Shown in pieces: positions 18,830 to 59,305 of a stretch of DNA of 64,000 bases. A program made the translations under genes and the position numbers. Positions within the stretch are counted from its first letter, which is position 1, and each line of letters starts with the position of its first letter. The notes beneath the pieces were generated by a model that saw nothing but the letters and a program-made list of their open reading frames with translations, had not been told where the DNA came from and did no database searches. This DNA comes from a virus, in the IMG/VR virus record IMGVR_UViG_3300025732_000020, positions 71,408 through 135,407 of that record; one strand, written 5' to 3'.

Positions 18830-19393
18830 ATGTATCCTCACACAATCGTAGTCCTCGGGGCTGATCGAGTTGGAAAATCTAGTATCGTTAAAAATACTCA
18901 AGATGAGTTGATCTCCCGCGATGTATGTGTCCGTTCACTTCACTTCTCTGGACCTCAACCTCATCATCATACTCCCATCCAGCAATACCTCGATCCTTTT
19001 CAATCTGCCATTGAGGAAAAAGCTCAAGTAGTTATCTGCGATCGTGGATTCTCAGAGGTATGTTTTTATGAGAAGTTCCGCCGTCACATCGAGATCTCAG
19101 AAGAATGGGCTAATTCCGCCGAGTCTTTCTTCTCTGCTTACAGTCAGACGATTAAAGTTTTTCTTATTGAGCGGAACTGGGAATGGAGTCTTCCTCATCA
19201 CATTATCGAAGTTAATGACCTCTATCCAAATTGTTCCGATTATTTCCTAGAGATGCAACTCAAAGTTAGGAAAAAAGAGCATGAGGAGTATTACTCCTAT
19301 ATGAAGGACTATCTCTCTAACCGCTCGCTTCTTTCAGACGTTCAGATTATCTCTCCCACTTCCAAAAGTTTCTCTTTGGCTAATGTGGTTTAA
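18830..19393 (+). CDS. Deoxynucleoside monophosphate kinase (thymidylate-kinase-like P-loop)
   Basis: IVVLGADRVGKSS P-loop at the N-terminus; VICDRGFSEVCFYE carries the DR motif of TMK-like kinases; TGATATAAT at 18795-18803 upstream. Confidence 0.7.
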   Translation: MYPHTIVVLGADRVGKSSIVKNTQDELISRDVCVRSLHFSGPQPHHHTPIQQYLDPFQSAIEEKAQVVICDRGFSEVCFYEKFRRHIEISEEWANSAESFFSAYSQTIKVFLIERNWEWSLPHHIIEVNDLYPNCSDYFLEMQLKVRKKEHEEYYSYMKDYLSNRSLLSDVQIISPTSKSFSLANVV

Positions 19394-45933: not shown

Positions 45934-46929
45934 ATGTCCAGTATCCTAGAGCACAATAAAATGATCTTCAAGAAGGACTCTGGGTTTGATTTCCCAGAAT
46001 TCTATGACTACTATGAGCGGACCGTGGCTAGTGTCTGGAGGCATCAAGAAGTTGCCATGGAATCAGACCTTCGTGACTGGCAATTTAACTCCACGCCTGA
46101 TGAGCGGGCTGTGATCGCTGGGATTCTTAAAGGGTTCGTTAGTGCTGAGCTAGGTATTGGGTGTTATTGGGCTGATGAGGTATGCCGCATCTTCCCTAAA
46201 CCTGAGATCCAGGCAATGGCTAAAGCATTCTCTTTCTTTGAGACAATCCATGCTGCCGCCTACTCCTACCTCAATGATGTCCTCGGCCTCAAGGAGTATG
46301 AGGAGTTCATCAACGATCCTGTCGCCTGCTCAAAGATCGATACATTTTTTTCCAAGTATCCAGACAAGGTGTCCCTTGCTGTTTTCTCTGGAGCAGGAGA
46401 AGGCGTAAGTCTATTTAGTTCATTTGCTGTGCTCCTCAGCTTCAATAAAGATGGCCGGTACAAAGGTCTTGCCCAGATCATCTCATGGAGCGCTATCGAT
46501 GAGCAGACTCACTCTGAGGCAGGTTGCCAACTCTTCAAGAGACTCGTGGAGGAAACCGGACTTTCCGACGCTGACCGTCAGGCGATCTATGAAGGTTTCC
46601 AACTCGTAGTTGACAAAGAATCGTCCTTTATTGACCATATTTTTAATTCAGCAAATATCTCCTCAATCGATGCTGAGGAGTTGAAAGCTTATATTAAGAA
46701 CAGAGCAAACGAACGCCTACTTCTCCTCGGCCTTGACCAGATGTTCAAACTAACCACCGAAGAACTTACAAAGGCAAAATCAATTTCCTCTTGGTTTGAT
46801 CCGATGGTCAAAGGGGCAAGTAGTACGGACTTCTTTGCTGCTTCTAAAGATGGTGCTAACTACGTTGCCAAAGTCTCTCAAGATTTTATGGCTGTAGATC
46901 TTTCCGCCTTGGACCTCGTTCTTGCCTAA
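45934..46929 (+). CDS. nrdB: Ribonucleotide reductase class I beta subunit
   Basis: ETIHAAAY (radical Tyr), GAGEGVSLFSSFAVL, IDEQTH di-metal ligands, DFFA near the C-terminus. Confidence 0.95.
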   Translation: MSSILEHNKMIFKKDSGFDFPEFYDYYERTVASVWRHQEVAMESDLRDWQFNSTPDERAVIAGILKGFVSAELGIGCYWADEVCRIFPKPEIQAMAKAFSFFETIHAAAYSYLNDVLGLKEYEEFINDPVACSKIDTFFSKYPDKVSLAVFSGAGEGVSLFSSFAVLLSFNKDGRYKGLAQIISWSAIDEQTHSEAGCQLFKRLVEETGLSDADRQAIYEGFQLVVDKESSFIDHIFNSANISSIDAEELKAYIKNRANERLLLLGLDQMFKLTTEELTKAKSISSWFDPMVKGASSTDFFAASKDGANYVAKVSQDFMAVDLSALDLVLA

Positions 46930-46932
46930 CAG

Positions 46933-47088
46933 ATGATCAAAGAACCAATCTGCATTAAAGGCCACTGGGTAGTTGAGCTATCTGACGGTTATCAGATCAA
47001 ATTCAATGATGGTGAAACTGCCCAAGATTTTTATCTACTAAACAAAGCTAGAGAAGAACAAACTCATGGCAATACATCCGAATCCTGA
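46933..47088 (+). CDS. Small hypothetical protein (51 aa; absent from the ORF track)
   Basis: ATG 3 nt after the nrdB stop; MIKEPICIKGHWVVELSDGYQIKFNDGETAQDFY...; fills the gap before 47066. Confidence 0.55.
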   Translation: MIKEPICIKGHWVVELSDGYQIKFNDGETAQDFYLLNKAREEQTHGNTSES

Positions 47089-47272
47089 TAGAAGTGACGT
47101 CTTGATGGCGAGGGATCATGGCACAATGTGCCTTATCACTGACCCTAAAGCCGACAAGTATCTTCGCAGAACCAGAACGTCCAAAGTAACCACTCCACCA
47201 GAAGACAGATACTCCCGCCCATGTGGTGGTAAGGGCGGTTTTGATGATTATTGCGAAAGGATGGCGGAATAA
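47066..47272 (+). CDS. Small hypothetical protein (cyanophage-type)
   Basis: ARDHGTMCLITDP and SRPCGGKGGFDD resemble small cyanophage proteins from memory; TAATG coupling to the next gene. Confidence 0.55.
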   Translation: MAIHPNPDRSDVLMARDHGTMCLITDPKADKYLRRTRTSKVTTPPEDRYSRPCGGKGGFDDYCERMAE

Positions 47273-48012
47273 TGTACCATTTTGTGTATCTTTCTTTTGA
47301 AGATTCAAAAGGTGGAAGAAATTATATAGGTAAAAGAAGTTGCTTAAACCCCTATGACAATTATTTAGGGTCTTTTTCAGACACGTCTTTTAATCCAACA
47401 AATAAAATTATCCTATCCTATTATAAGACCGCTGAAGAAGCAATAAAAGGAGAGATTCAATGGCAAAGAGTTTTTAGAGTAAAAGATGATTCAAATTTTG
47501 CTAATCAGGTATATCAGACCGATGTAAAATTTGATTGTACTGGCAGAAAACATAGCGAAAAAACTAAATTAAAAATGTCTATCTCTCAAAGAGAATGCCA
47601 AAATAGGCATGATGTTAAAATTAAAAAAAGTGAAAATATAAGAAAAGCGTTAAAGAATGAAGAGATAAAATTAAATCACTCATCTCAGATGAAGAGAATA
47701 GGAAAACAAAAGGAGTCTCAACTTAAAAAGTCTATCTCTTTAAAGAAATTGAATGGTGCAGTCCATTCACGTAATGAATGGAAAGTAAGACAAAGTATTT
47801 CTCAGGTGAAAAGTCAAAATGATCCTGTTACAAAAGAATTAAAATCTAGAAGAATAAAAGAGGCAATGCAAAGTGAGCAAGTAAAAGATAAACTAAGAAG
47901 TAGAAAAAATCCTCAAAAGGGAAAGATATGGGTAAATGACGGATGCAATTCTTTAATGGTTTTTCCAAATGAGGTACCTGAAGGATATAAGAGAGGGAGG
48001 TCTAAAAAATGA
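47272..48012 (+). CDS. GIY-YIG (Seg-like) homing endonuclease
   Basis: HFVY...NYIGKR...YLGS at the N-terminus; NUMOD3-like GRKHSEKTKLKMS; AT-rich; ATG at 47272. Confidence 0.8.
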   Translation: MYHFVYLSFEDSKGGRNYIGKRSCLNPYDNYLGSFSDTSFNPTNKIILSYYKTAEEAIKGEIQWQRVFRVKDDSNFANQVYQTDVKFDCTGRKHSEKTKLKMSISQRECQNRHDVKIKKSENIRKALKNEEIKLNHSSQMKRIGKQKESQLKKSISLKKLNGAVHSRNEWKVRQSISQVKSQNDPVTKELKSRRIKEAMQSEQVKDKLRSRKNPQKGKIWVNDGCNSLMVFPNEVPEGYKRGRSKK

Positions 48013-48431
48013 GAGATGGCATGAATAATTTTCGTACCCCTGATGGGTGGAGGGTTAGAGGAAGGGAACAAGGAGGAAGAGATTTTTCTGACTCAAAAGA
48101 AGTCTGGAAGCAATGGCGTAGTTCCCCTTACGAGGTAAGTAATACTGGAAAGGTAAGAAGAAAGGGAAGTAACGAGGTCCGTAAACCAAGAGACGATGAC
48201 CGCAAACACCAGAGAGTGAATCTCACCTGGGATGGAAATAGAGAAGAACCACCTTTACACCAGATGGTTATGGAACTTTTTGGTCCTCCTAAGCCCAAGG
48301 GTGAACATATAGTCATCTTACATAAAGATAATGATGGGACTAATAATGCCATCTCAAATCTCAAATGGGGAACTAGGTCGGAGAACGTCCAACAAGCCCA
48401 CGATGATGGACTGATTAAAAAGTCAAAATAA
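48009..48431 (+). CDS. NUMOD4-HNH homing endonuclease
   Basis: EVWKQW...YEVSNTGKVR (NUMOD4), LHQMVMELF, LHKDNDGTNNAISNLKWGTRSEN (HNH). Confidence 0.88.
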   Translation: MRDGMNNFRTPDGWRVRGREQGGRDFSDSKEVWKQWRSSPYEVSNTGKVRRKGSNEVRKPRDDDRKHQRVNLTWDGNREEPPLHQMVMELFGPPKPKGEHIVILHKDNDGTNNAISNLKWGTRSENVQQAHDDGLIKKSK

Positions 48432-48532
48432 AAACTCAATAACAACCTAACCTAACAACCTAGTAACATTACCGTTACTGTTGGGTTAGTTTGCTATGCT
48501 CCATGATAAAATAAACTACCAACTCTGATAAA

Positions 48533-50449
48533 ATGCCTGAACTTCAAGTACCGGAATGGATGAGCAAGGAAGCCGTGGATACCCTTTCACGTGGATATCT
48601 CTATCAAGGTGAGACTCCTCGTGGGATGTATGAGAGGGTCTCCCATCAAGCTGCCAAACTTCTCAACTATCCTGAGATCTCCCAAGATATTTTTGAGATG
48701 CTTTGGAAGGGATTCTTGGGTCTAGCCACCCCAGTAGCAAGCAATTTCGGTACTTCACGAGGGCTGCCCATCAGTTGCTACTCAAACCACCTCTCTGATT
48801 CTGTCCCATCCATTTACTCCCATCTCAAAGAATCCGCAGCACTCTCTCAACATGGAGGTGGAGTAGGAACTTACTTTGGGGACATTCGTCCCGCTGGAGC
48901 GCCTATTTCCTCTGGAGGTAAGAGTACTGGCATTGTGCCTTGGATGAGACAGTATGACCAATGTGCCTCTGTTGTCTCTCAAGGCGGTGTGAGACGTGGC
49001 AGTTTTGCACTCTACCTCCCCATTGACCACCCCGACCTGCCTGAAGTACTGCGTTCTAAAGACCACTCGCAAGGTGACCCACGCGATTTTATTGATAGTA
49101 ACATCGCTGTAACCATCTCTGATGAGTGGGTGGAGAGTATGATCCGTGGGGATAGGGATAAGCAAAAGATTTTTGGCGAGGTACTTAAAGCTAGAATGAT
49201 TAGCGGGTCCCCTTACATGATCTTTATTGATAATGCCAATCGTGCCAATCCAGAGTGCTATACGCAACGTGGACTTAGTGTAAAACTTAGCAATCTCTGC
49301 TCTGAGATCTTCCTTCATACCGATGAGAACCATACCTTCGTCTGTGTACTTTCCTCACTGAATCTCTCGCGTTGGGAGGAGTGGAAAGATTGGACAGGTC
49401 CAGCAACTGGCAAAACTGCCCCTGAACTGGCTGTATACCTCCTCGATGCTGTCGTTGAAGAATTCTGCCACAAGGCCGAACGTCTCACGTCTCTTGGAAG
49501 AGCCGTACGCTTCGCCCGTAAATCCCGTGCTCTGGGCCTTGGGACCATGGGTCTTCATGCTCTTTATCAGTCTAAAGATCTACCCTTTGCATCTGAAACC
49601 GCTCGTTCTTTGAACATCGAAGTCCACGAGTTCATCAAAGAAAAAGCAACTAAAGCCTCTAAAGATATGGCTGCCACTTATGGCGAGCCTGAATGGTGCC
49701 AAGGTACTGGCCTCCGTCATACCCACCTCATGGCTATTGCTCCAACCAAATCTAACTCTGTGATCTGTGGGGCTGGAAGTGAAGGTATCGAACCCATCGA
49801 TGCCAACTATTATGTTGCTAAGCAAGCTAAGGGCACTTTTGTTCGTAAAAACAAGTACCTCGTTGAGTATCTTGAATCGATTGGCCGTAATACCGAGGAG
49901 ACCTGGGAGTCAATTCTAGAATTCCGTGGATCGGTGCAACATCTAGACTTCCTTGATGATTATCACAAGGATGTATTTAAGACTGCACGGGAGATTGACC
50001 AGTTTGAATTGATTAAACAAGCATCCGATCGCCAAAAATTTGTCTGCCAAGGGCAATCAATTAATCTCTTTGTTGATCCCGAAGCCTCTCCTGATTATCT
50101 TTTCAGACTCCACCTCAGTGCATGGAAAGGAGGACTCAAGTCCCTTTACTATCTCAAGAGTAGTTCTCTTCTTGTAAAGCGTAAAAAGCTTGAGACTTCA
50201 TCTAAAACCGCGAAGATCATCACCAAGGAAACCTGTCCATACTGCGTCATGGCAAAATCCCTTCTCAGGTCGAAAGATTACAAGATTGAAGAGATTGACC
50301 GATCTGAAGTTCCAGACTCAGAGTTTCCTTACCGCACTGTTCCTCAGATCTGGATTAATGGACACCACATCGGAGGATATAATGAACTGGCAGAAAAGAT
50401 CGGTACTCCCGAAAAACAATATGGTGAATGTGCTGCCTGCGAGGGTTGA
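48533..50449 (+). CDS. nrdA: Ribonucleotide reductase class I alpha subunit, without ATP cone, with an internal glutaredoxin domain before the C-terminal CxxC tail
   Basis: PISCY, SNLCSE, FVCVLSSLN, LKSLYY; Grx motifs TCPYC, TVPQIW, IGGYNEL; C-terminal ECAACEG. Confidence 0.95.
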   Translation: MPELQVPEWMSKEAVDTLSRGYLYQGETPRGMYERVSHQAAKLLNYPEISQDIFEMLWKGFLGLATPVASNFGTSRGLPISCYSNHLSDSVPSIYSHLKESAALSQHGGGVGTYFGDIRPAGAPISSGGKSTGIVPWMRQYDQCASVVSQGGVRRGSFALYLPIDHPDLPEVLRSKDHSQGDPRDFIDSNIAVTISDEWVESMIRGDRDKQKIFGEVLKARMISGSPYMIFIDNANRANPECYTQRGLSVKLSNLCSEIFLHTDENHTFVCVLSSLNLSRWEEWKDWTGPATGKTAPELAVYLLDAVVEEFCHKAERLTSLGRAVRFARKSRALGLGTMGLHALYQSKDLPFASETARSLNIEVHEFIKEKATKASKDMAATYGEPEWCQGTGLRHTHLMAIAPTKSNSVICGAGSEGIEPIDANYYVAKQAKGTFVRKNKYLVEYLESIGRNTEETWESILEFRGSVQHLDFLDDYHKDVFKTAREIDQFELIKQASDRQKFVCQGQSINLFVDPEASPDYLFRLHLSAWKGGLKSLYYLKSSSLLVKRKKLETSSKTAKIITKETCPYCVMAKSLLRSKDYKIEEIDRSEVPDSEFPYRTVPQIWINGHHIGGYNELAEKIGTPEKQYGECAACEG

Positions 50450-50505
50450 TCTCACGCCCAATCCGTGATAGAATCTACAAGTAAACATTGTTCCTAATCA
50501 GTTCC

Positions 50506-50961
50506 ATGAATTTCGACTATTCTCAGTTCATCAATGAAGGCTATGCTTCTCAGCAAAAATACGCAAAAGCTGCTGGTCAACCCGGCCCACTTGATGAAAA
50601 TCTCTCTCGGGAAGATCGCCACGCGAAAGTAATCGAGTACATGGGACATCTTATCGAAGAAACAATCGAGGCTCGGGTATATGTCCCTCGCCGAAGCTGG
50701 AAGAATAACGAGCCTTCTTTCCTCGACTCCGACAAGAACCGTGAGGAGTTTATCGCTGAGATGTTTGATATCCTTCTCTTCCACCGAGCAGCACTTGCAT
50801 ATGCTGGCGTAAGTGGCGAAGAATTTGCAGAAATTGCCGCTAAGAAAATGAATTACAACTCCAAGCGAAAAGACCACAACGTTAATGGTACTGAGGAGGC
50901 TTCGCAGAATCCCACCGAAGAACTGCAGGGTAATTGCAAATCCGCTGATTTCAATGGCTAA
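50506..50961 (+). CDS. All-alpha NTP pyrophosphohydrolase, T4 gp56-like dCTPase/dUTPase
   Basis: LIEETIEA...RRSWK...EEFIAEMFDILLF...GVSGEEF...KKMNYNSKR parallels gp56 / dimeric dUTPase motifs; TGATAGAAT at 50466-50474. Confidence 0.65.
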   Translation: MNFDYSQFINEGYASQQKYAKAAGQPGPLDENLSREDRHAKVIEYMGHLIEETIEARVYVPRRSWKNNEPSFLDSDKNREEFIAEMFDILLFHRAALAYAGVSGEEFAEIAAKKMNYNSKRKDHNVNGTEEASQNPTEELQGNCKSADFNG

Positions 50962-51118
50962 AGATTACAGGGCATTTGGCGAAACCAAGTGCCATTTCTG
51001 TGACGGGAGAGGATTTATAATCCTCCAACAATCAACTCTGGAGGGTAAAATCCTCCCTAACCACGTAGAAGAATGTGAGCGATGCAATGGACAAGGATTT
51101 TTTAAGCAAGATAGCTAA
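50954..51118 (+). CDS. Small DnaJ-type zinc-finger protein
   Basis: Two CxxCxGxG motifs (CHFCDGRG, CERCNGQG); ATG at 50954. Confidence 0.65.
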   Translation: MAKDYRAFGETKCHFCDGRGFIILQQSTLEGKILPNHVEECERCNGQGFFKQDS

Positions 51119-51572
51119 AGGACAGATCCTTGTCCTTAACGCAACTTACGAACCAATAAACATAACCTCATGGAAGAGGGCATTTGTTCTCCTTTTAAAG
51201 GAAAAAGCACAACTTGTTAATCACAGAGTAATCAGACTTCTTGAATATATCAAGATTCCTTTTACAAAATTAAAAAACAACAAACCAACTAGAAGTGCTA
51301 TTTATCAACGAGACGGACACAAATGCCAATACTGTGGATCCACTCGTAAACTGACCATCGATCACATCATTCCTAAGTCTAAAGGTGGTACAGACTCATG
51401 GGATAATTTAGTTGTTGCTTGCTCTTCTTGTAATATTAGGAAAAGTGATAAGTATCTAGAGCATACCGGAATGAAACTTATTCGTAGGCCTGTTCAACCA
51501 CGTACTCACCTAGATATTGCCATAACTCAGACAAATATGGCAGAGTGGAAAGAGTTTTGCTTTATGGCTTAA
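51087..51572 (+). CDS. HNH endonuclease (McrA/HNH_5-like)
   Basis: ILVLNATYEPIN, IYQRDGHKCQYCG, LTIDHIIPKSKGG, WDNLVVACSSCN. Confidence 0.9.
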   Translation: MDKDFLSKIAKGQILVLNATYEPINITSWKRAFVLLLKEKAQLVNHRVIRLLEYIKIPFTKLKNNKPTRSAIYQRDGHKCQYCGSTRKLTIDHIIPKSKGGTDSWDNLVVACSSCNIRKSDKYLEHTGMKLIRRPVQPRTHLDIAITQTNMAEWKEFCFMA

Positions 51573-51625: not shown

Positions 51626-52192
51626 ATGGACTTTTACTTCTCGTTTGGCAAAAAGAGACCTTCGGAAAAATCGACGGTTATCTCCGCTGCATTTATCTGG
51701 GGTATTTTAGAAGTAATTATTGACCCTCTACTTGATTTTATTAATCGTAGAGTATTGAATAAAATAAAAGGAGAGGAATTAAAACGGGTATTTGACGAGT
51801 TGGATATTTTCTGGCTTAGAAATGGTTTGAATAAAGACTACTCTGAGTCTGAAGTAAGACTAATCATCTCTATGTTTTTAAGAGCTATAAAAGACGACCA
51901 TCTGTCCCGTAAGGAACTCTTAACTCTTGTTGACTTTGTTCAGAGAAAGTGGTCGTCCTCTGAGGCATTACAAAAAACATTTACCCAGGTCGATGAAGTT
52001 ATAGAAGCTAGAGTAGAAGCAACTGTAGACCAAGCCATAGAACTCTATGAAAAGAAATATATGGAAAAGCCACAAACCCCAGAGGAATTTGTGGTCAGTA
52101 CTGCCGAGATTATCTTTCATGAGCCAGATGGTAGCACGGCTCAAGAGTTACTCGGTGGGATGATAGAAATTAAGAGTAGAATTATTTACTAA
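51626..52192 (+). CDS. Hypothetical protein with N-terminal hydrophobic segment
   Basis: 188 aa; VISAAFIWGILEVII; helical remainder. Confidence 0.55.
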   Translation: MDFYFSFGKKRPSEKSTVISAAFIWGILEVIIDPLLDFINRRVLNKIKGEELKRVFDELDIFWLRNGLNKDYSESEVRLIISMFLRAIKDDHLSRKELLTLVDFVQRKWSSSEALQKTFTQVDEVIEARVEATVDQAIELYEKKYMEKPQTPEEFVVSTAEIIFHEPDGSTAQELLGGMIEIKSRIIY

Positions 52193-53403
52193 ATAACCCA
52201 GAGGGACTTCATCGGATCTTTAGAGGCAGTATTATTCTGCCTTAAGATTTTGTATGTGCCATCTCCTTGGGTCTCAGGATCGATCCATTCTCTGTTACCA
52301 TCTAGAGCTTCAGCAATCTCTCTAATCCAGTCTGCAGCAGTACATGCCGGAACATTCTGGCAAATCACATTACTATGCTTAGTTGGAATTTGTACCTTTT
52401 TGGCATAATCATCAGGGAAACCCATGAGGGCTAGACCCTCAGAAACGGTTAACCATCTGTCCTCATGGGGATGCATCAGATGAGGAAGAGTTTTCCACAT
52501 AAGCGATTGTGTTCTATACCATGCAAGTTTCATACTTCCGTCCATGATATTCTTTCCGGCTCTTTTTTTCTCCAAGGTGTAGTTGAGCCAGCGACTTGCT
52601 CTCTCATCCTTGACTACTCTAGCGGCTTCTTCTAACCACCCTGAGTCATAGATTACGTTCCATACGGACGTCATTCTCTTAGAGGCAACATGAGCTAGAA
52701 TGTCCTGCTTTGTAGACCCGGTAAACTTAGACTCAATAAACTGCCAGAGGGGGTCTGCACTAGGAAGATTTTTATTATTTGACACCGACTCCGTAGGAGC
52801 GAAATGTCCCTCTCCTAGGAATTTATGGAAAGGCAGGAAGTCTTTTTTAACTGGCGCAAGGACCGGGACCTTGTTACCCTTCCACAAGAAAAAGAAACTT
52901 CTTGTCCGTTCTTGTGGCACGCCATGATTAATCGAGGTGGTCTTTACCAAACTCATTGTATAGCCATTTGCCTGGGCGAGGGAGTTAATTCTTTCTGCAA
53001 ACTCCTCTCCCATCTTGGAGTAGAGAGTTGGGGCGTTCTCGACCATAATTGCCTTAGGAGCAATTTTCTGCATAGCAAACTCAGCAGCATTGTACATATG
53101 CATGTTACTAGGAGCAGAACATCCACGTGGGTTGTTTGCTTTATCCCCAGAGGTGGTGTTGGCCATTGAGAGCCCAGCGCATGGAGGAAGTGACGTTACA
53201 ATATCTACATAGTCAGTAGGATAGTTCTTCTCATCGAAATCGTAAAATGGCACCTTATCCATGTACTTGAGACAGTACTGATCATTCGCACCAAATACAC
53301 TCCCCCAAGATGCAATCCACTTCGGATCTGACTGAAGGGCAATCGAAGTTCCTACAACACTTCCCCCTACGAGAGGGATGATATGACCATGAGTATACGT
53401 CAT
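52189..53403 (-). CDS. Divergent DNA cytosine-C5 methyltransferase
   Basis: Catalytic LPPCAGLS (IV), VENAP (VI), GVPQERTRSF (VIII), RWLTVSEGLALMGFP (IX), CQNVP (X); motif I reads IIPLVGG instead of FxGxGG. Confidence 0.8.
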   Translation of the reverse strand: MTYTHGHIIPLVGGSVVGTSIALQSDPKWIASWGSVFGANDQYCLKYMDKVPFYDFDEKNYPTDYVDIVTSLPPCAGLSMANTTSGDKANNPRGCSAPSNMHMYNAAEFAMQKIAPKAIMVENAPTLYSKMGEEFAERINSLAQANGYTMSLVKTTSINHGVPQERTRSFFFLWKGNKVPVLAPVKKDFLPFHKFLGEGHFAPTESVSNNKNLPSADPLWQFIESKFTGSTKQDILAHVASKRMTSVWNVIYDSGWLEEAARVVKDERASRWLNYTLEKKRAGKNIMDGSMKLAWYRTQSLMWKTLPHLMHPHEDRWLTVSEGLALMGFPDDYAKKVQIPTKHSNVICQNVPACTAADWIREIAEALDGNREWIDPETQGDGTYKILRQNNTASKDPMKSLWVI

Positions 53404-53479
53404 GTGATATAATAATTAAGTCTAGAGTTCCTTAGACTAAAAATCCTCGGTTTAAAGATTATGGAGGATAAATTTAGCA

Positions 53480-53776
53480 ATGGATAAAAAACTCTCGGCT
53501 CAAGACTATATGGAAATCTTGAAAAAGAAACGTCAAGATGGCTCGTATGACTATGCCGATCGTGTCTTTTATAAAGGCAAAGTAATGCTTAAATGCCCCC
53601 CAGGAGCTACTAAGATGGGGAACACATGCGTCCCATCTGCTGCCACTGCAGCTGCCGCTGGACCAGGTAAGAACTGGCAAAAAGATCTCGGAGGCATTAA
53701 CCCTCAACAAGTTCAGCAATTAGGCGTTGCAAAAACGTCTAAGGATGTAAAAAAAGCTAGGGAAAAGAATGGATGA
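53480..53776 (+). CDS. Small basic hypothetical protein
   Basis: 98 aa; KCPPGATKMGNTC; GGAGG and GTTTAAAG upstream. Confidence 0.6.
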   Translation: MDKKLSAQDYMEILKKKRQDGSYDYADRVFYKGKVMLKCPPGATKMGNTCVPSAATAAAAGPGKNWQKDLGGINPQQVQQLGVAKTSKDVKKAREKNG

Positions 53777-55010
53777 GCCAATCATCGTTACTAATGGGCG
53801 ATTCTCGGTGTCTATAGGTATCTCTAAAAAACAAATTCAAAACACAGATTTTTCTGGAATAGAAAAATTAGAACCTGGAGTGCCCGATGGTGCCACTGTT
53901 TGGAAAACACAAAGTGGTAGAACAGTAAAAAGAAATCCAGTCACTAATAGATGGTCTTACGTTGATCTTCCTAAATCAGTAAAGAATGATTCCGATGATC
54001 ATGAAGCTATTGAGAAAGAGATTAATGACTTTCTTTCTAACTCTGTAGAAGAATTGATTAAGGAATTAACAACAGAAAGCACTATCAATAGACCAGATAT
54101 CTCTGGGGAGATTAAATCAGAAAAAAGCCATGGGAAGTATACATTAAGCTTAGATGAAGCTAAGTCTTTTCATGAATACCTAAAAAATCCAAAGTCACAG
54201 GAGAAATATTACGTTAGTGCTGACAGTGTAGATAATGTAATAGATAAGTTAAAACAGTCTCCTAATTTTACAAATAACCTTAAAAGGATAGCCTCTAAAG
54301 GAAGCATATCCACTAGAGGAGTTAACCTTGAAGATAGGGCTCGTAAAGTAATAAGGTTTTACCTATCTACTGGCGGTAGGTGCGCTGTTACAGGCGAAAA
54401 AATGAGTTTTAGTAATCTTCAATTAGATCATAAGATTCCTTTATCACTAAAAGGCTCAGATACAGAGGATAACTGGGCAATGATGAAACCAAAATTCAAT
54501 CAATTTAAGAGAAACTTACTGGGAGATAAGTTATTTAATAAATTAAATAAAGAAATAAATCTTCCAGAGCATTTAAGAAAGATAAGACAATTAAAAAATG
54601 AATCACTAAATAACGTTAGAAGTACCTGGGGTAACTTCCTAAGAGCATCAGACGCGGATACTATAGCAGTATCTTTACAGCCTGAACAGGTAAAGAGTTT
54701 AATAAAGGGTACTAAAGGTACAGAAGTATTGAAAGCTTTGCTAAATAAATTTGAAATTTCTTACTATACGCCATCTAATGATGGGATTAGAAGTAGAGGT
54801 TTAGTACTATCTAAGCAAAAAATGGCTAATCTGCTTTTAGATAGAATTAAAAATATTAAAGAAAATAATAAGAATATAGACATATCTATTTCATCTGCTT
54901 TTGAATTTCCAGATACCTCAAAGGATAATGATTATGATAAAAAGATCAAGGAAATTAGGGCAGAACAAAAATTAAAAACCAGTAATCAAAAACAAAACAA
55001 ACTACAATGA
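53769..55010 (+). CDS. HNH-domain nuclease with a long N-terminal region
   Basis: GRCAVTG...LQLDHKIPLSLKGSDTEDNW...FNQFK; AT-rich. Confidence 0.7.
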   Translation: MDEPIIVTNGRFSVSIGISKKQIQNTDFSGIEKLEPGVPDGATVWKTQSGRTVKRNPVTNRWSYVDLPKSVKNDSDDHEAIEKEINDFLSNSVEELIKELTTESTINRPDISGEIKSEKSHGKYTLSLDEAKSFHEYLKNPKSQEKYYVSADSVDNVIDKLKQSPNFTNNLKRIASKGSISTRGVNLEDRARKVIRFYLSTGGRCAVTGEKMSFSNLQLDHKIPLSLKGSDTEDNWAMMKPKFNQFKRNLLGDKLFNKLNKEINLPEHLRKIRQLKNESLNNVRSTWGNFLRASDADTIAVSLQPEQVKSLIKGTKGTEVLKALLNKFEISYYTPSNDGIRSRGLVLSKQKMANLLLDRIKNIKENNKNIDISISSAFEFPDTSKDNDYDKKIKEIRAEQKLKTSNQKQNKLQ

Positions 55011-55249
55011 TTGAAAGAATCTCAAAACCGATTCGCTTTGATAAGCAAATCCCTTGGCTCGTAGTAGCCCGTGACGGAGAAAAATTCTTTGTCGCTAAAG
55101 AAGATGTAATTGCCGAGGACCCAAGTATGGAACTCATTGAGATGGGAAGTCGTTCCCTTCTCCAGTGGGCAATGGAGTATGACTACCCACTCCGTAAATT
55201 TGTAAAACTCCAAAAAATATTAGTCAAGAAATATTTCGATATCCAATGA
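55007..55249 (+). CDS. Small hypothetical protein
   Basis: 80 aa; ATGA overlap with the upstream gene. Confidence 0.55.
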   Translation: MIERISKPIRFDKQIPWLVVARDGEKFFVAKEDVIAEDPSMELIEMGSRSLLQWAMEYDYPLRKFVKLQKILVKKYFDIQ

Positions 55250-55264
55250 GCAGGGGGTTTCTCA

Positions 55265-55273
55265 TGATAGAAT
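55265..55273 (+). promoter_or_regulatory. Putative early/middle extended -10 promoter TGATAGAAT (representative copy; about 9 copies listed in findings)
   Basis: TGn-TA(T/G/A)AAT upstream of the kinase, thioredoxin, 44348, nrdB, nrdA, dCTPase-like, TS-like and primase genes. Confidence 0.7.
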
Positions 55274-55302
55274 GATGATCAAATCATTCATCACGGGAGA
55301 CC

Positions 55303-56139
55303 ATGACTCTGTCATTTGACTATCAGTACATCAAGATTGCAAAAGAAATCCTTTCCGAAGGGACCGAAGTTGTCGGCCGAAATGATCTCCGCTATAAGCA
55401 GATGTTCGGCCAGACAATCAAAGTCGATCTTCGGGAGGGATTTCCTGCATTGACTATTCGCAAGATGCCCATCCGTAATCTCTTCCGAGAATTTATGTGG
55501 GATGTCAATGGAGACTACCAAGTCACCAACCTGGGTCCAGCCAAGCACTTCTGGGACTTCCTTGCGGACACCGAAGGCCGTCTCGCAGGATCTTATGGAC
55601 GCTCATGGCGATCTTGGCCCCAGGTCTGCCCTGAGCAGAATATGCAATGGGAAAACTTCCGTAGTGGACCCTTTGATCAACTTAAGTGGATTTGGGAACA
55701 ACTCCGCACTAACCCAACTAATCGCCAACTTGTTCTTCAAACTTTCAATCCTGCTTACGACTCTCTTCACTGCCCTCCTTGTCATCCTAACGTCACTTTT
55801 TCTAGCGATGGGACTTATCTCGATGTTCTGGTAACTGCTCGGAGTAATGACATGGCCACTGGAGTGCCACTAGACATGTTCCGTTATAGTCTTCTTACCA
55901 TCAAGATGGCTCAAGATGCCGGCCTCACTCCCCGATTTGTGATGTTCGCTTCTGCAAACAACCACATCTACTCCCAAAATGAGATGGCCATTGAGTCTAT
56001 TATCAAGAACGTTCCTATGACACCCTGTGACGTATGGATCAATAACGAAAAAACTCTATTTGAACTCGATCCAGAGACCGACTTCGAACTGATTGACTAC
56101 GAGTCTTATCCGTCAGTTCGTATGGAGGTTGCAAACTGA
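55303..56139 (+). CDS. Thymidylate-synthase-fold enzyme with Asp at the Asn177-equivalent site; candidate dCMP methyl/hydroxymethyltransferase
   Basis: FREFMW, SYGRSW, CPPCH (catalytic Cys at 55780-55782), RSNDMATGVPLD (GAC at 55873-55875), HIY, C-terminal EVAN; the fold is confident, the substrate is inferred. Confidence 0.85.
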   Translation: MTLSFDYQYIKIAKEILSEGTEVVGRNDLRYKQMFGQTIKVDLREGFPALTIRKMPIRNLFREFMWDVNGDYQVTNLGPAKHFWDFLADTEGRLAGSYGRSWRSWPQVCPEQNMQWENFRSGPFDQLKWIWEQLRTNPTNRQLVLQTFNPAYDSLHCPPCHPNVTFSSDGTYLDVLVTARSNDMATGVPLDMFRYSLLTIKMAQDAGLTPRFVMFASANNHIYSQNEMAIESIIKNVPMTPCDVWINNEKTLFELDPETDFELIDYESYPSVRMEVAN

Positions 56140-57416
56140 TGTCTTTGCCCTCCTACGATTACACCACGACTCTCCTTGAAGATGTATTTGAGCCCATCCT
56201 CAATCCTTATTATCCGATTGTCGTTATTGATTTCAAGGTATATGCTCATGCCATTAATAAATATGCTGAGTTGGCTTCAGAAGTCGCTAAAGATGAGGAA
56301 GAGTTAAAAACGATCATGAAAGCGATGTGGGCTTATAAACTCAATCGCGGGCCTGATATGCTCAAATCTTTCCCTTTTGTTGGGGTAGTGGTTGATGATC
56401 TCAAGGGTCAGTTTGAACCCGGGTTTTCTGAGGCATCGACTACAGGCGTGGGATATTGGAGACATATTGAGGCACATAAACTTAACCTCGCTGAGTATAA
56501 AGGGGGAAGGGGCGAAAAAACTCCCTTCTTCTACATTACGGAGGCTGCGGGGTACGAGTACATACTCTCCCAAGGATCCACGTTCCCTTACTTTGCAAAA
56601 GAGTTCTTTGAGGCGGATGACATTGCAGGACATATTTGCAGACTAAAGCGAAAGGCAAAAAAGAATACTGCCTTAGCCCAAAGACAAATCATCCTCTCCA
56701 CTGTGGATGGGGACTGGCAAGGACTAGTCTCCGACCCTCATGATATTGTCTGGGCCAATACCGGCCCATGGCTTCCCCGCCTCCGCTCTGAACGCGAGGT
56801 ATGCGACTACTACCTCCGAAAAGACAAACTTATCATCGACTCCGCATATGGGTGCTATACCGTAAAGGAAAAAGTCGGTGATGCTGGAGATAACCTTCTC
56901 CCTGGAACCCCCCTACGATTTTTTGACTTATACAATGAAGATTCTGAATGGCGTTTTACAAAGGAAGACACCGAAGCAATATCAAAAACACTTAACTCCA
57001 ATACTGCTTCGAACAGGGAAGATCATTTACTTTCCGCGAAGAAGTTCCTCTCCTCTAGGGGTCTTTTTATGCCAGAGATTGGAGAAACTCAGTACGATGA
57101 AAAACAATTTTTCATTACTAAAGCCAAAAAGATCCGCATTGAAAACTCTCATCCAGAGCTCCGTGGGAAAAACAAAACTCTATGCCTTAGTGTCGCGGAT
57201 CAAGAGGAAGTTTTTAAAAAATGTAAGCAACTAGCTCTTCATCAAGAAGAACTGAAGCAACAGATCAAAGAGCATACCGAGCAGGTTGCTAAATGTAAAG
57301 AAGAGGAGGATAAGAAGTGTATCAAAGACCTCCGACTCACAATTAAATCCCTTAAGGACCTCCGAGATTCAGTTGTGAACGATTTTAAACAACTTGTTGG
57401 AGTCCTAGACGACTGA
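56139..57416 (+). CDS. 5'-3' exonuclease (FEN / T4 RNase H-like) with C-terminal coiled coil
   Basis: VVIDFK, EYKGGR, FEADDIAG, STVDGDWQGL, GDAGDNLLPG. Confidence 0.85.
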   Translation: MSLPSYDYTTTLLEDVFEPILNPYYPIVVIDFKVYAHAINKYAELASEVAKDEEELKTIMKAMWAYKLNRGPDMLKSFPFVGVVVDDLKGQFEPGFSEASTTGVGYWRHIEAHKLNLAEYKGGRGEKTPFFYITEAAGYEYILSQGSTFPYFAKEFFEADDIAGHICRLKRKAKKNTALAQRQIILSTVDGDWQGLVSDPHDIVWANTGPWLPRLRSEREVCDYYLRKDKLIIDSAYGCYTVKEKVGDAGDNLLPGTPLRFFDLYNEDSEWRFTKEDTEAISKTLNSNTASNREDHLLSAKKFLSSRGLFMPEIGETQYDEKQFFITKAKKIRIENSHPELRGKNKTLCLSVADQEEVFKKCKQLALHQEELKQQIKEHTEQVAKCKEEEDKKCIKDLRLTIKSLKDLRDSVVNDFKQLVGVLDD

Positions 57417-57434
57417 CCCAAACTATCCTATAAT

Positions 57435-57459
57435 AGTCCCAGAGACCTGGGACTTTTTT
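57435..57459 (+). terminator. Intrinsic terminator-like hairpin between exonuclease and helicase genes
   Basis: AGTCCCAG-agac-CTGGGACT followed by TTTTT. Confidence 0.75.
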
Positions 57460-57463
57460 CTTT

Positions 57464-59305
57464 ATGGCAGCAGAATCTAAAAAACAAGGACATTCTTCGG
57501 CAAAGGAGACTCTTGGGGTGAAAGGCCCCTCGAAGATGTACAAATCGATTCTCGCTTGGTTGGAGAACAAAGGCTATCATCTTCGTTTTGATTACAATGC
57601 TAAACTTCAAAGCTTCCACTCTCTCTACGAAGAACATGATCCTTCTATGGATCCTATGGCGCCGAAAAGTATCCGGTATCCCAAGTGGTTCCAGTTTCTG
57701 GTACCAGCTTCTGAATACCGCCTTGAAGCCGCCCAAGACTTGATTCTTGATGAGACATGTATCGAAGAGATCGGCGCAGAAGAGCAGGAGTTTGCTGTGC
57801 CTCTCTTTGTCTATCGCAGTGGACGGAGTAGTGAGATTACTGACCATGTCCTTGGTCTAGAAAACCTCAAGGCTCTCCGTCACAAAAAGATGGGAGGTGG
57901 ACAGTATAAACTGGGTATTTCTCACTCTCCCAACAAGAACAAAGGTAATAAAAAAGCTATTGAAGAGACCTATGCCTATATCCCTGAGAAAGATTGGTTT
58001 ACCGAAGAACTTCAAGAACTGACCTTTGAAGATATCGTAAAGATCTTTCCCTATCACGAGGCTCAAATGATCAAGTTGATCATTGGCAGGGCATGTGTAG
58101 GCCGGAGCGGATCTGTCCATCCTGGTACTGGAGATATCATCGAGCATGGGTTCAGGAAGGCAGGAGTTGTGATTGGTGAACCTGGAGTTGGCAAGACCAT
58201 CACCCTCAATGGTATCCTCAACGCCATGAAGTATGTCGGGTATGACGTCTCTGCCATGGGAGACTTTGGTTCCCGTTTCAACCAAGGCTCCGTAATTACT
58301 TCCCACCTTGCCTATAACGACGACCTTACTTTGGAGTCCTTGGAGAAGATGCTCAAGGCCCATAGCTTTAAGTCTGTTGTGACTGGAGGGACGGAAAAGA
58401 TCGAGAATAAGGGTGTCGATGCTGTTGAGGTAGTTGCCAATACTGTCATCTTGGCAAACTGTAATGAATGGAAGCCAGAGATCACTTATTCTCTTGACTC
58501 TGGAGCGATTAGCCGCCTTGCTCCTATCTCCACCTATCGCCTCTTCGAGCTTGAGGAGATGAGTCAAGAGGAAGGCCATGACATCCACCCCGGCTCTCAT
58601 ATTAAGTGGTTGTGCGAGAAGTACGATACTGATCCGATGTCACTCTACCTCCGAGTTCTTCGTGACTGTACCGACTTTTTCTTGGGTAAGTGCCAAGATG
58701 CAGAGGATGTCCATTTCTACTCTGAATCTCTGCTTCCCTATATGCGGATTCAAATCCACAAAAACTCCCTTGAATGTTTCATCCGTTTCGGATTCTTGGC
58801 CTATGCCATCCGTCAACGTAAAGCCGAGGGCAATTGGCTCCCTGAGTTGACTCTTGGGTCCTTGGCAGAGATCCTTGAAGCTACCCGCTTCTTGATGATT
58901 GATAAGAGAGCCGATAAGTTCCGCAATCTACTCAAGGATGACTGGAATGATCGCCATCGGAGTCAATGGCACCCCTACTGGGCACAACGGAAGCTCCTCA
59001 TTACGTCTATTGACAAAGCCTACGAGATTTTCAATAACTACCGTAATGATAAGGATGTTGCTCTGACCACCGAGAATGTATTTGATGTTCTCCGCCTCCG
59101 TGATGGTTTCTCTATGGGTAAGAAGATGACGCATATTGTCCGTACTTGGGAAATGGTCAAGGGCGAGAAGAATAAGATCTATGAACTGGGTAAGAAGATC
59201 GTAGAGCAAATGAACGAAGAAGAACTAGAACCTATCTACAATGACCGGAACAAAGCAAACGTGGAGTGGATCTACAGTCCCGATTACGACCCTCAGAAAG
59301 TGTGA
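57464..59305 (+). CDS. SF3 / D5-like P-loop helicase
   Basis: VVIGEPGVGKT (Walker A), LAYNDD (Walker B), ILANCN (motif C-like), IENKGVDA; adjacent to the primase gene. Confidence 0.75.
   Translation: MAAESKKQGHSSAKETLGVKGPSKMYKSILAWLENKGYHLRFDYNAKLQSFHSLYEEHDPSMDPMAPKSIRYPKWFQFLVPASEYRLEAAQDLILDETCIEEIGAEEQEFAVPLFVYRSGRSSEITDHVLGLENLKALRHKKMGGGQYKLGISHSPNKNKGNKKAIEETYAYIPEKDWFTEELQELTFEDIVKIFPYHEAQMIKLIIGRACVGRSGSVHPGTGDIIEHGFRKAGVVIGEPGVGKTITLNGILNAMKYVGYDVSAMGDFGSRFNQGSVITSHLAYNDDLTLESLEKMLKAHSFKSVVTGGTEKIENKGVDAVEVVANTVILANCNEWKPEITYSLDSGAISRLAPISTYRLFELEEMSQEEGHDIHPGSHIKWLCEKYDTDPMSLYLRVLRDCTDFFLGKCQDAEDVHFYSESLLPYMRIQIHKNSLECFIRFGFLAYAIRQRKAEGNWLPELTLGSLAEILEATRFLMIDKRADKFRNLLKDDWNDRHRSQWHPYWAQRKLLITSIDKAYEIFNNYRNDKDVALTTENVFDVLRLRDGFSMGKKMTHIVRTWEMVKGEKNKIYELGKKIVEQMNEEELEPIYNDRNKANVEWIYSPDYDPQKV

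What the first reader, a model, noticed from the sequence alone, without database searches (positions are those of the whole stretch)
55303..56139. ThyA look-alike with the Asn-to-Asp specificity switch (RSNDMATGVPLD)
Seen: codon GAC at 55873-55875 puts Asp 11 residues after the Arg of the RS motif, and the Gln before RS is Ala (TARSND). Established: E. coli TS reads QRSCDVFLGLPFN, and Asn177 selects dUMP. T4 dCMP hydroxymethylase reads RSNDVVFGFRND with Asp at this site, and Asn-to-Asp TS mutants methylate dCMP. Inference: the substrate is dCMP. The full TS scaffold, including the C-terminal EVAN, favours a methylase. No DHFR is visible in the window, and many cyanobacteria use ThyX, which would favour the redox-neutral hydroxymethyl transfer. 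An automated pipeline would probably label this gene thyA.
Basis: partly seen in the sequence, partly recalled or inferred. Interest (0 to 1): 0.8.

Follow-up and report, generated by a model that had tools for sequence, protein, structure and literature searches.

The report
Cyanophage dCMP-modifying thymidylate synthase look-alike
A gene that pipelines call thymidylate synthase in a TIM5-like cyanophage has the active-site changes that switch this enzyme family from dUMP to dCMP, so the phage probably builds modified cytosine into its DNA; whether the added group is methyl or hydroxymethyl cannot be settled from sequence.

Summary
ORF 55303-56139 (+, 278 aa) is a full-length ThyA-fold protein. 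It has Asp (GAC 55873-55875) where E. coli has Asn177 and Ala where E. coli has Gln165. The rest of the catalytic set is intact.

The window is the 3' half of a 135-kb TIM5-like cyanophage contig. The signature is invariant in about 90 protein clusters and defines a well-supported clade separate from T4 gp42, Xp12 and SPO1-type enzymes.

All complete relatives also carry ThyX, a dCMP deaminase and a homologue of T4 DNA alpha-glucosyltransferase. So this gene is not needed for dTMP. A dCMP substrate is well supported (about 0.85).

The product is unresolved:
- Residue rules point to methyl: no Asp/Glu at position 143, His147 and Trp80 kept, and a TS-length C-terminal tail.
- Context points to hydroxymethyl: the glucosyltransferase, no TET, and no DHFR in the phages or in 61 sampled host-family genomes, which all have ThyX.

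I favour 5-hydroxymethyl-dCMP (about 0.45) over 5-methyl-dCMP (about 0.35).

The N177D rule is published. I found no paper applying it to TIM5-like phages. This scan already flagged the same gene in two other genomes.

The parts
55303..56139 (+). ThyA-fold enzyme, 278 aa, predicted dCMP C5 one-carbon transferase. Its stop overlaps the ATG of the flap-endonuclease gene by one base.
55873..55875 (+). GAC = Asp191, at the E. coli Asn177 position (pyrimidine specificity)
55837..55839 (+). Ala179, at the E. coli Gln165 position (partner of Asn177)
55771..55785 (+). Cys157-Pro-Pro-Cys160-His161. Cys160 is the catalytic Cys146 equivalent and His161 the His147 equivalent. Cys157 sits where TS has Leu143 and hydroxymethylases have Asp/Glu.
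56122..56136 (+). C-terminal tail Met-Glu-Val-Ala-Asn. It has the same length after Tyr209 as in E. coli TS (55 residues) and is conserved across the family.
50488..50961 (+). All-alpha NTP pyrophosphohydrolase (MazG/PRA-PH-like). It is a candidate dCTPase; that function is inferred only.
   Evidence: Pfam PRA-PH E=0.0015, below cut-off; phrog_12184 E=1.6e-6; atlas score 0.94; no BLASTP similarity to T4 gp56
52189..53403 (-). C5 DNA cytosine methyltransferase homologue with an unusual N-terminus (PLVGGS). This subfamily recurs next to this TS clade in unrelated phages.
18830..19393 (+). P-loop (GADRVGKS) and CDRGF protein, a thymidylate-kinase-like candidate dNMP kinase
   Evidence: motifs read from the sequence; AAA_28 weak; atlas score 0.96 to viral Tmk-like clusters
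45934..50449 (+). Ribonucleotide reductase genes NrdB (45934-46929) and NrdA fused to glutaredoxin (48533-50449). Two homing-endonuclease-type genes lie between them.

Best explanation
The gene encodes a folate-dependent enzyme on the thymidylate synthase scaffold that acts on dCMP instead of dUMP. Cys160 attacks C6. Asp191 reads and protonates N3/N4 of cytosine, where Asn177 reads uracil in TS. The Gln165 partner is replaced by Ala. A one-carbon unit from methylene-tetrahydrofolate is then added at C5. I think the most likely product is 5-hydroxymethyl-dCMP, formed by water capture of the exocyclic methylene with release of THF. A thymidylate-kinase-like dNMP kinase would take it to the diphosphate, and cellular NDP kinase would presumably take it to the triphosphate. 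A MazG-like pyrophosphatase would deplete dCTP. The phage polymerase would then incorporate the modified base. After replication, a T4-type DNA alpha-glucosyltransferase homologue, encoded just beyond the contig end in all complete relatives, would glycosylate it. dTMP would come separately from the phage dCMP deaminase plus ThyX. Shown: the fold, the residues, their conservation and the gene content of relatives. Inferred: the substrate, the product and every pathway step.
For: 1. The substrate switch is present. Asp sits at the Asn177 column and Ala at the Gln165 column. The same pattern occurs in the two experimentally known dCMP enzymes, T4 gp42 (Asp/Met) and Xp12 (Asp/Leu). The N177D rule is established (Liu & Santi 1992, Hardy & Nalivaika 1992, as cited in PMC8670742) and is used predictively for phage TS homologues. 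In one test, 5 of 7 produced 5mdCMP (bioRxiv 10.1101/2024.12.05.627091).
2. All other catalytic and binding residues are kept: Arg21, Glu58, Trp80, Tyr94, Arg126, Cys146, Arg166, Ser167, Asp169, His207 and Tyr209. The AF2 model has pLDDT 95.9 and superposes on E. coli TS at TM 0.88-0.93 and rmsd 1.7-1.9 A.
3. The gene is spare for dTMP. S-TIM5, S-TIM54, S-TIM61 and S-TIM66 all carry ThyX, as does the complete uncultured relative G067. A dCMP deaminase is present in the window's own record.
4. Several lines favour hydroxymethyl. All four isolates carry a PF11440 AGT homologue. Its only PDB matches are T4 DNA alpha-glucosyltransferase, E=2e-14, with the RG-EGCGV and HDH--LS--RN motifs shared. 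Among 50,697 phage records, its homologues occur only in T-even-type phages and the five TIM5-like records. The gyrase-AGT-psbA order is kept in G067 and G072, and the window's contig starts inside psbA. No Tet_JBP was found. DHFR_1 was found in none of the TIM5-like genomes and in 0 of 61 host-family genomes, which have ThyX in 61 of 61 and ThyA in 0 of 61. The known dCMP methylase phage Xp12, by contrast, encodes DHFR next to its TS. A clade member in an unrelated phage lies within 7 kb of a GT41 glycosyltransferase. Trp83 is replaced by Leu and Leu143 by Cys, which shrinks the shield over the methylene. Ser precedes the catalytic Tyr in 83% of the clade.
Against: Every experimentally characterised hydroxymethylase or hydroxylase I aligned has Asp/Glu at position 143, has lost His147 and lacks the TS tail. 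These are T4 gp42, SPO1 gp29, M6, ViI, PhiW-14 and RB69 gp48. The D145N mutant of T4 dCH is dead (PMC6400193). This family instead has Cys (rarely Thr or Ile) at 143. It keeps His147 and Trp80, and it keeps a conserved tail, M(E/D)VAN, of TS length. The published residue rule (PMC13326640) would therefore call it a methylase. A C5 DNA methyltransferase homologue travels with the clade, which fits 5mC as the phage's mark. The glucosyltransferase is only about 23% identical to T4 AGT, and its acceptor is untested. The glucosyltransferase and ThyX are not on the window's own truncated record. The candidate dCTPase and kinase rest on weak matches. There are no chemical data on TIM5-like virion DNA.
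Confidence: 0.45

Rival explanations
1. The enzyme is a dCMP methylase of the Xp12 kind. It uses the same substrate switch, but the exocyclic methylene is reduced by hydride transfer from THF, giving 5-methyl-dCMP and DHF. The phage DNA would carry 5mC, and the co-travelling C5 DNA methyltransferase would fill in the sites that escaped. The AGT homologue would then have another acceptor, or would act after an undetected oxidase.
For: There is no acid at position 143, and His147 and Trp80 are kept. The TS-length tail is conserved, and the fold is closest to canonical TS. The rule in PMC13326640 links a non-acidic residue 143 to methyl products. The known methylase Xp12 also lacks an acid there, having Asn. 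In a test of marine-virome D177 homologues, 5 of 7 made 5mdCMP. The same C5 methyltransferase subfamily sits next to this TS clade in TIM5-like phages and in an unrelated phage.
Against: No DHFR_1 was found in the four complete relatives or in 61 sampled host-family genomes. Xp12, by contrast, carries DHFR beside its TS. 5mC offers no hydroxyl group for the conserved AGT homologue. No Tet_JBP was detected, and a 2OG-Fe(II) oxygenase is present only in S-TIM54. Leu143 and Trp83, which are kept or bulky in TS and Xp12, are reduced here to Cys and Leu.
Confidence: 0.35
2. The enzyme makes 5-methyl-dCMP mainly as a route to dTMP. 5mdCMP or 5mdCTP would be deaminated by the phage deaminase, as proposed for Xp12 and the marine mSCD-B5 system, rather than used to mark DNA.
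For: The pairing of a TS homologue (D177) with a deaminase and a PRA-PH-like pyrophosphatase is typical of the marine contigs described in bioRxiv 10.1101/2024.12.05.627091. The window's own genome has a dCMP deaminase.
Against: The complete relatives have ThyX, so a dTMP route already exists. The deaminase lies about 80 kb from this gene rather than beside it. The DHFR problem described for the methylase reading applies here too.
Confidence: 0.05
3. The enzyme is still an ordinary thymidylate synthase acting on dUMP, and the Asp is tolerated.
For: It has a full TS scaffold and matches the TIGR03284 equivalog above its cut-off. It is annotated ThyA in GenBank.
Against: All 109 canonical TS representatives aligned have Asn at position 177. 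N177D TS mutants lose most dUMP activity (papers cited in PMC8670742). Gln165 is also lost. A second thymidylate synthase, ThyX, sits in the same genomes. No DHFR was found in phage or host family.
Confidence: 0.05
4. The enzyme performs another C5 chemistry on dCMP, such as flavin-dependent 5-hydroxylation as in RB69 gp48, or it acts on CMP as MilA does.
For: The TS family has recently yielded unexpected chemistry (PMC13326640). The glycosyltransferase would accept any hydroxyl-bearing base.
Against: The diagnostic D169N change of 5hodCMP synthases is absent: Asp183 is kept in the whole family. His207, Tyr209 and Ser167, which read the deoxyribose, are kept.
Confidence: 0.05

Closest known systems
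Cyanophage S-TIM5 'ThyA' (AEZ65733, JQ245707.2) and the S-TIM54/61/66 orthologues (Aurunvirus)
   Same: They are 78-80% identical over the full length. The active-site signature is identical, and so is the local gene order: MTase, then the TS homologue, then flap endonuclease, then DUF5906 primase.
   Different: They are annotated only as ThyA or thymidylate synthase. In the library I could search, I found no paper that assigns them dCMP specificity or reports modified DNA. S-TIM5 has Ala, not Ser, before the catalytic Tyr.
T4 gp42 dCMP hydroxymethylase
   Same: Asp at the 177 position, Gln165 lost, the RSND motif, Trp80 kept, and Trp83 replaced by a small aliphatic residue. The genomic partners are analogous: dCMP deaminase, a pyrophosphatase, a dNMP kinase and an AGT-family glucosyltransferase.
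   Different: Only 20% identical and on a separate branch. T4 has Asp145 at the 143 position, Thr at 147 and no C-terminal tail. The window's protein has Cys, His and a full tail.
Xanthomonas phage Xp12 dCMP methylase (QNN97214)
   Same: Asp177, Gln165 lost, no acid at 143 and a long C-terminal region.
   Different: 25% identical and on a separate branch. It has Pro at 147 and Phe at 83. It sits in a TS-deaminase-DHFR operon, whereas TIM5-like phages have no DHFR but have ThyX.
E. coli ThyA and other canonical TS
   Same: They are the best structural match (TM 0.88-0.93), with the same length, tail and catalytic residues.
   Different: N177D, Q165A, L143C, W83L and R127Q. There are also clade-wide changes: D205N, S180R, F62D, K48R and I79F.
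Marine-virome TS homologues of the MetaGPA studies (eLife 2021, PMC8670742; bioRxiv 10.1101/2024.12.05.627091)
   Same: D177 TS homologues co-occur with dCMP deaminase and PRA-PH-type pyrophosphatase in phage contigs shown to resist C-sensitive treatments.
   Different: Position 147 was differentially conserved there, but it is His here, as in TS. Membership of the TIM5 clade in those sets is unknown.

Membership tests
Thymidylate synthase ThyA fold (PF00303) | Full-length match to the family profile and TS fold | tested here: met
   PF00303 E=2.9e-54, covering 2-265 of 266 positions. AF2 pLDDT 95.9; Foldseek to E. coli TS gives TM 0.88-0.93.
Thymidylate synthase ThyA fold (PF00303) | Catalytic Cys146, Glu58, Tyr94, Arg166, Asp169, His207 and Tyr209 | tested here: met
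   All are present and invariant in the family.
Canonical dUMP-specific thymidylate synthase (EC 2.1.1.45) | Asn177 with its Gln165 partner reading uracil O4/N3 | tested here: not met
   The window's protein has Asp191 and Ala179. All 109 canonical representatives have Asn.
Canonical dUMP-specific thymidylate synthase (EC 2.1.1.45) | dTMP synthesis from dUMP | not testable with these tools
   Needs an enzyme assay or thyA- complementation.
dCMP-specific TS homologues (T4 gp42, Xp12 type) | Asp at the 177 position and loss of Gln165 | tested here: met
dCMP hydroxymethylase, T4 gp42 type | Asp/Glu three residues before the catalytic Cys (water activation; Park 2019, PMC6400193; PMC13326640) | tested here: not met
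   Cys157 in the window's protein. Across the clade the residue is Cys, Thr or Ile, never Asp or Glu.
dCMP hydroxymethylase, T4 gp42 type | Ser/Thr next to the catalytic Tyr (T4 Ser94, structurally E. coli Val93) | tested here: inconclusive
   Ser97-Tyr98 in the window's protein. Ser or Thr occurs in 22 of 24 clade representatives, but Ala in the S-TIM5 isolates. The structural equivalence is taken from PMC6400193 and was not superposed here.
dCMP hydroxymethylase, T4 gp42 type | No TS C-terminal tail | tested here: not met
   55 residues follow Tyr209, as in E. coli. The tail M(E/D)VAN is conserved.
dCMP hydroxymethylase, T4 gp42 type | Partner DNA glucosyltransferase acting on the product | tested here: inconclusive
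   An AGT homologue is present in all 4 isolates and in G067 and G072. It is not on the window's truncated record, and its acceptor is untested.
dCMP methylase, Xp12 type | Non-acidic residue at 143 and an intact closing tail for hydride transfer | tested here: met
dCMP methylase, Xp12 type | A means to recycle DHF (DHFR in phage or host) | tested here: not met
   DHFR_1 was found in 0 of 5 TIM5-like records and 0 of 61 host-family genomes. Non-FolA reductases were not searched.
5-hydroxy-dCMP synthase (RB69 gp48 type) | D169N | tested here: not met
   Asp183 is kept throughout the family; RB69 gp48 shows Asn.

The most novel reading that the evidence does not exclude
The TIM5 clade may be a new kind of dCMP hydroxymethylase. 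It would hydrate the exocyclic methylene on an otherwise intact TS scaffold. That means a closing C-terminal tail, His147 and Trp80, but no Asp/Glu143 water activator, with Cys143, Leu83 and the small residue 165 opening the site to water. It would feed an AGT-type glucosyltransferase. A widespread lineage of marine and freshwater cyanophages would then carry glycosylated hydroxymethylcytosine DNA, made in a DHFR-free, ThyX-based nucleotide economy.
Probability: 0.4. Interest if true: 0.7.

Novelty: new variant of a known kind. Interest (0 to 1): 0.55.

Why it matters
TIM5-like phages infect marine Synechococcus and are widespread, yet I found no report that their DNA is modified. A genome-wide cytosine replacement would affect three things:
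- how these phages escape host restriction and CRISPR;
- how well they are recovered by sequencing, PCR and polony assays;

For enzymology, the clade is a natural test of the published residue rules. Positions 177, 143 and 169 are used to predict the products of phage TS homologues in metagenomes. Here the rule (methyl) and the genomic context (glucosyltransferase, no DHFR anywhere, ThyX) disagree. Either outcome is informative. One outcome is a hydroxymethylase without the acidic water activator. The other is a reductive methylase working in a FolA-less host, alongside an AGT homologue that has a new acceptor.

Tried and rejected
- The single-sequence AF2 fold was useless (pLDDT 35.5) and was replaced by an MSA-based model.
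- Megablast of 16 kb of the window against phage records found nothing. Relatives are only detectable at protein level.
- Absence of ThyX, AGT and DHFR in the window's own record is not evidence of absence. The contig starts inside psbA and ends before the ThyX region of S-TIM5.
- The claim of a 'gp56-like' pyrophosphatase is not supported by direct comparison with T4 gp56 (BLASTP E=0.9). There was also no PDB or NCBIfam match.
- The candidate kinase has no PDB sequence match.
- The S-TIM5 protein annotated 'kinase' is a HAD/PNKP phosphatase domain, not a dNMP kinase.
- P0093, a 447-aa relative, is fused to an HNH/NUMOD4 homing endonuclease, not to DHFR.
- Palindrome and CpG statistics of the 135-kb record show only mild, generic depletion (CpG odds 0.68, no TpG excess) and say nothing about modification.
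- The sequencing-run search gave only coded DNA metagenomes kept as contigs and no RNA holder was listed. I did not lay reads because contigs cannot reveal base modification.
- The Sabehi 2012 paper describing S-TIM5 is not held in the library.
- Contigs of several more distant clade members were too short to be informative.

Full report
**1. The observation**

ORF 55303-56139 (+) encodes 278 aa. A GGGAG lies upstream of its ATG, and its TGA overlaps the ATG of the next gene. The DNA reads cta-gac at 55870-55875, giving Leu190-Asp191.

The protein matches Pfam Thymidylat_synt end to end (E=2.9e-54). It also matches NCBIfam TIGR03284 above its cut-off and PHROG 160, thymidylate synthase. phmmer alignments to solved TS structures put 'tARSNDmatGVPLD' on 'yQRSADiflGVPFN'.

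A MAFFT alignment with E. coli ThyA, T4 gp42 and the Xp12 dCMP methylase confirms the key columns:

| Enzyme | Position 177 | Position 165 |
|---|---|---|
| E. coli ThyA | Asn | Gln |
| Window's protein | Asp | Ala |
| S-TIM5 ThyA | Asp | Ala |
| Xp12 | Asp | Leu |
| T4 gp42 | Asp | Met |

**2. What the DNA is**

The window is bases 71408-135407 of a 135,407-bp IMG/VR virus record estimated 84% complete. The gene's nearest isolates are cyanophage S-TIM5 and S-TIM54/61/66 (Aurunvirus), at 78-80% amino-acid identity. There the gene is annotated ThyA.

The neighbourhood is a replication and nucleotide-metabolism module:
- NrdB and NrdA-glutaredoxin;
- a MazG/PRA-PH-like pyrophosphohydrolase;
- HNH endonucleases;
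- a C5 DNA methyltransferase homologue on the opposite strand;
- then the TS homologue, flap endonuclease and DUF5906 primase.

A P-loop, thymidylate-kinase-like protein lies at 18830-19393. A dCMP deaminase lies upstream of the window, in the same record.

**3. How solid the signature is**

About 90 protein clusters share 43-100% identity with the window's protein. All full-length ones carry the following:
- Asp177;
- a small residue at 165 (Ala, Gly, Ser or Cys);
- His147, Trp80, Leu83, Gln127 and Asp169;
- Cys at 143 (rarely Thr or Ile);
- the tail M(E/D)VAN.

An exhaustive HMMER search of 1.84 billion representatives shows a sharp drop. About 15 relatives score at E<1e-39, and all of these are of the D177 type. 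Below them come generic TS at about 30% identity.

In a FastTree of 89 sequences the D177/small-165 clade is monophyletic (SH-like support 0.97). It sits within the canonical TS radiation. It is separate from T4 gp42/RB69 gp48, from the SPO1-type dUMP hydroxymethylases and from Xp12. The tree is midpoint-rooted and quick, so I claim no donor and no order of events.

Compared with 109 canonical TS, the clade also differs consistently at D205N (100%), S180R (96%), F62D (92%), K48R, I79F and T47L. A Ser directly before the catalytic Tyr occurs in 83%.

The MSA-based AF2 model is confident (pLDDT 95.9). It superposes best on E. coli TS over its whole length (TM 0.88-0.93, rmsd 1.7-1.9 A).

**4. 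The gene is not needed for dTMP**

The S-TIM5 record encodes ThyX, a dCMP deaminase and this 'ThyA'. ThyX is present in all four isolates. It is also present in 6 of 10 long uncultured contigs, including the only complete one, G067, whose TS homologue is 89% identical to the window's. The window's contig ends before the ThyX region, so its absence there is uninformative.

With Asn177 and Gln165 both replaced, the published N177D mutant data, and a second thymidylate synthase in the genome, a dCMP substrate is the well-supported reading. I put it at about 0.85.

**5. Methyl or hydroxymethyl: the residue evidence**

I fetched experimentally characterised family members and tabulated the diagnostic columns.

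| Enzyme | Product | Residue 143 | Residue 147 | TS tail |
|---|---|---|---|---|
| T4 gp42 | 5hmdCMP | Asp | Thr | absent |
| SPO1 gp29, M6, ViI, PhiW-14 | 5hmdUMP | Asp | Asn | absent |
| RB69 gp48 | 5-hydroxy-dCMP | Glu | Thr | absent |
| E. coli ThyA | dTMP (methyl) | Leu | His | present |
| Xp12 | 5mdCMP (methyl) | Asn | Pro | long C-terminal region |
| TIM5 clade | unknown | Cys | His | present, TS length |

RB69 gp48 additionally has Asn at 169. The TIM5 clade keeps Asp169, which excludes the 5-hydroxy-dCMP type by the published diagnostic (PMC13326640).

By the published rule, acid at 143 gives hydroxymethyl and a non-acid gives methyl. On that rule the clade is a methylase. Two caveats apply. 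Leu143 and Trp83, which shield the methylene, are both shrunk here, to Cys and Leu. The Ser next to the Tyr resembles half of the T4 signature, but it is Ala in the isolates.

**6. Methyl or hydroxymethyl: the context evidence**

All four isolates encode a PF11440 AGT-family protein (phrog_2888, E=2.9e-150). Its only matches in the PDB are T4 DNA alpha-glucosyltransferase (E=2e-14), with shared RG-EGCGV and HDH--LS--RN motifs in the acceptor domain.

In 50,697 phage records its homologues occur only in T-even-type phages and the five TIM5-like records. The gyrase-AGT-psbA order is conserved in the uncultured relatives G067 and G072 (55% and 65% identity). The window's contig begins inside psbA, so the gene would lie just beyond its end.

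A glucosyltransferase of this family needs a hydroxyl on the base. No Tet_JBP oxygenase is detectable, and a generic 2OG-Fe(II) oxygenase is present only in S-TIM54.

A reductive methylase makes one DHF per dCMP. DHFR_1 is absent from all TIM5-like records. It was not found in 61 sampled genomes of the host family, all of which have ThyX and none ThyA. Xp12, by contrast, has DHFR beside its TS.

In an unrelated phage contig, a clade member lies within 7 kb of a GT41 glycosyltransferase. A preprint reports that GT-B enzymes in phages associate mainly with TS-type, pre-replicative pathways.

**7. A complication**

The C5 methyltransferase homologue next to the gene belongs to a subfamily with an unusual N-terminus (PL[V/I]GG). 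It recurs beside the same TS clade in the unrelated contig (28% identity, E=3e-36). It also recurs on contigs of distant relatives, judged by matching contig lengths. This fits a 5mC logic slightly better than a 5hmC one, and I cannot explain it under the hydroxymethyl reading.

**8. Weighing**

The residue rules favour methyl by perhaps 3-4 to 1. The glucosyltransferase and the missing DHFR favour hydroxymethyl by more. The methyltransferase pulls back towards methyl.

My estimates are:
- 5-hydroxymethyl-dCMP with later glycosylation, about 0.45;
- 5-methyl-dCMP, about 0.35, plus 0.05 for a variant in which it serves dTMP synthesis;
- still a dUMP enzyme, 0.05;
- other chemistry, 0.05.

None of this is shown chemically. 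The pyrophosphatase (not similar to T4 gp56) and the kinase are candidates only.

**9. Novelty**

The N177D rule and its predictive use for phage TS homologues are published (PMC8670742; bioRxiv 10.1101/2024.12.05.627091; PMC13326640). I found no paper in the searchable library that applies it to S-TIM5-like phages or reports their DNA as modified. The records call the gene ThyA.

This scan had already noted the same gene in two other genomes and the pathway on this window. I reached the glucosyltransferase and ThyX evidence independently, before reading those notes.

The clade has its own active-site signature, and that signature makes the published product rule disagree with the context. I therefore rate it a new variant of a known kind.

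Noticed in passing
window 52189-53403 (-); L163:7124-8425: The C5 DNA methyltransferase homologue has an atypical N-terminal motif (H--IPLVGGS instead of FxGxG). A 28%-identical homologue with the same N-terminus sits near a D177/C143 TS homologue and a GT41 glycosyltransferase in an unrelated Mu-like-tailed phage contig. This suggests a recurring TS-MTase-GT trio of unknown logic.
   Followed up: partly
window 47251-48431, 51075-51572, 53769-55010: The nucleotide-metabolism module is dense in homing-endonuclease-type genes. HNH_3/NUMOD4 and a phrog_314 homing endonuclease lie between nrdB and nrdA. There is an HNH after the pyrophosphatase and an HNH-like 413-aa ORF before the TS homologue. 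One clade member elsewhere (P0093, 447 aa) is called as one ORF with an HNH/NUMOD4 endonuclease.
   Followed up: partly
window 48533-50449: The NrdA large subunit carries a C-terminal glutaredoxin domain (residues 562-613).
   Followed up: no
host-family genomes G040, G043, G057, G064: In four picocyanobacterial genomes the ThyX match is split into two parts (profile positions 1-85 and 86-191) about 0.8-1.4 kb apart. In three of them the open frame is 514-701 aa. This looks like an intein or other insertion in thyX.
   Followed up: no
whole record G000:C1 (135 kb): The hexamer TCCGGA is absent (0 observed, about 10 expected, z=-3.2). With 64 palindromes tested this is marginal.
   Followed up: no
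window 52000-58000: Near-identical DNA is held by runs labelled freshwater, marine and aquaculture metagenomes from 11 studies. This TIM5-like lineage may therefore not be strictly marine. The labels are coded and were not checked.
   Followed up: no
L010:19526-19987 (S-TIM5 UTS51927, annotated 'kinase'): The S-TIM5 protein annotated 'kinase' matches the HAD phosphatase domain of polynucleotide kinase-phosphatase (PF25109, E=1.7e-18), not a kinase domain.
   Followed up: partly
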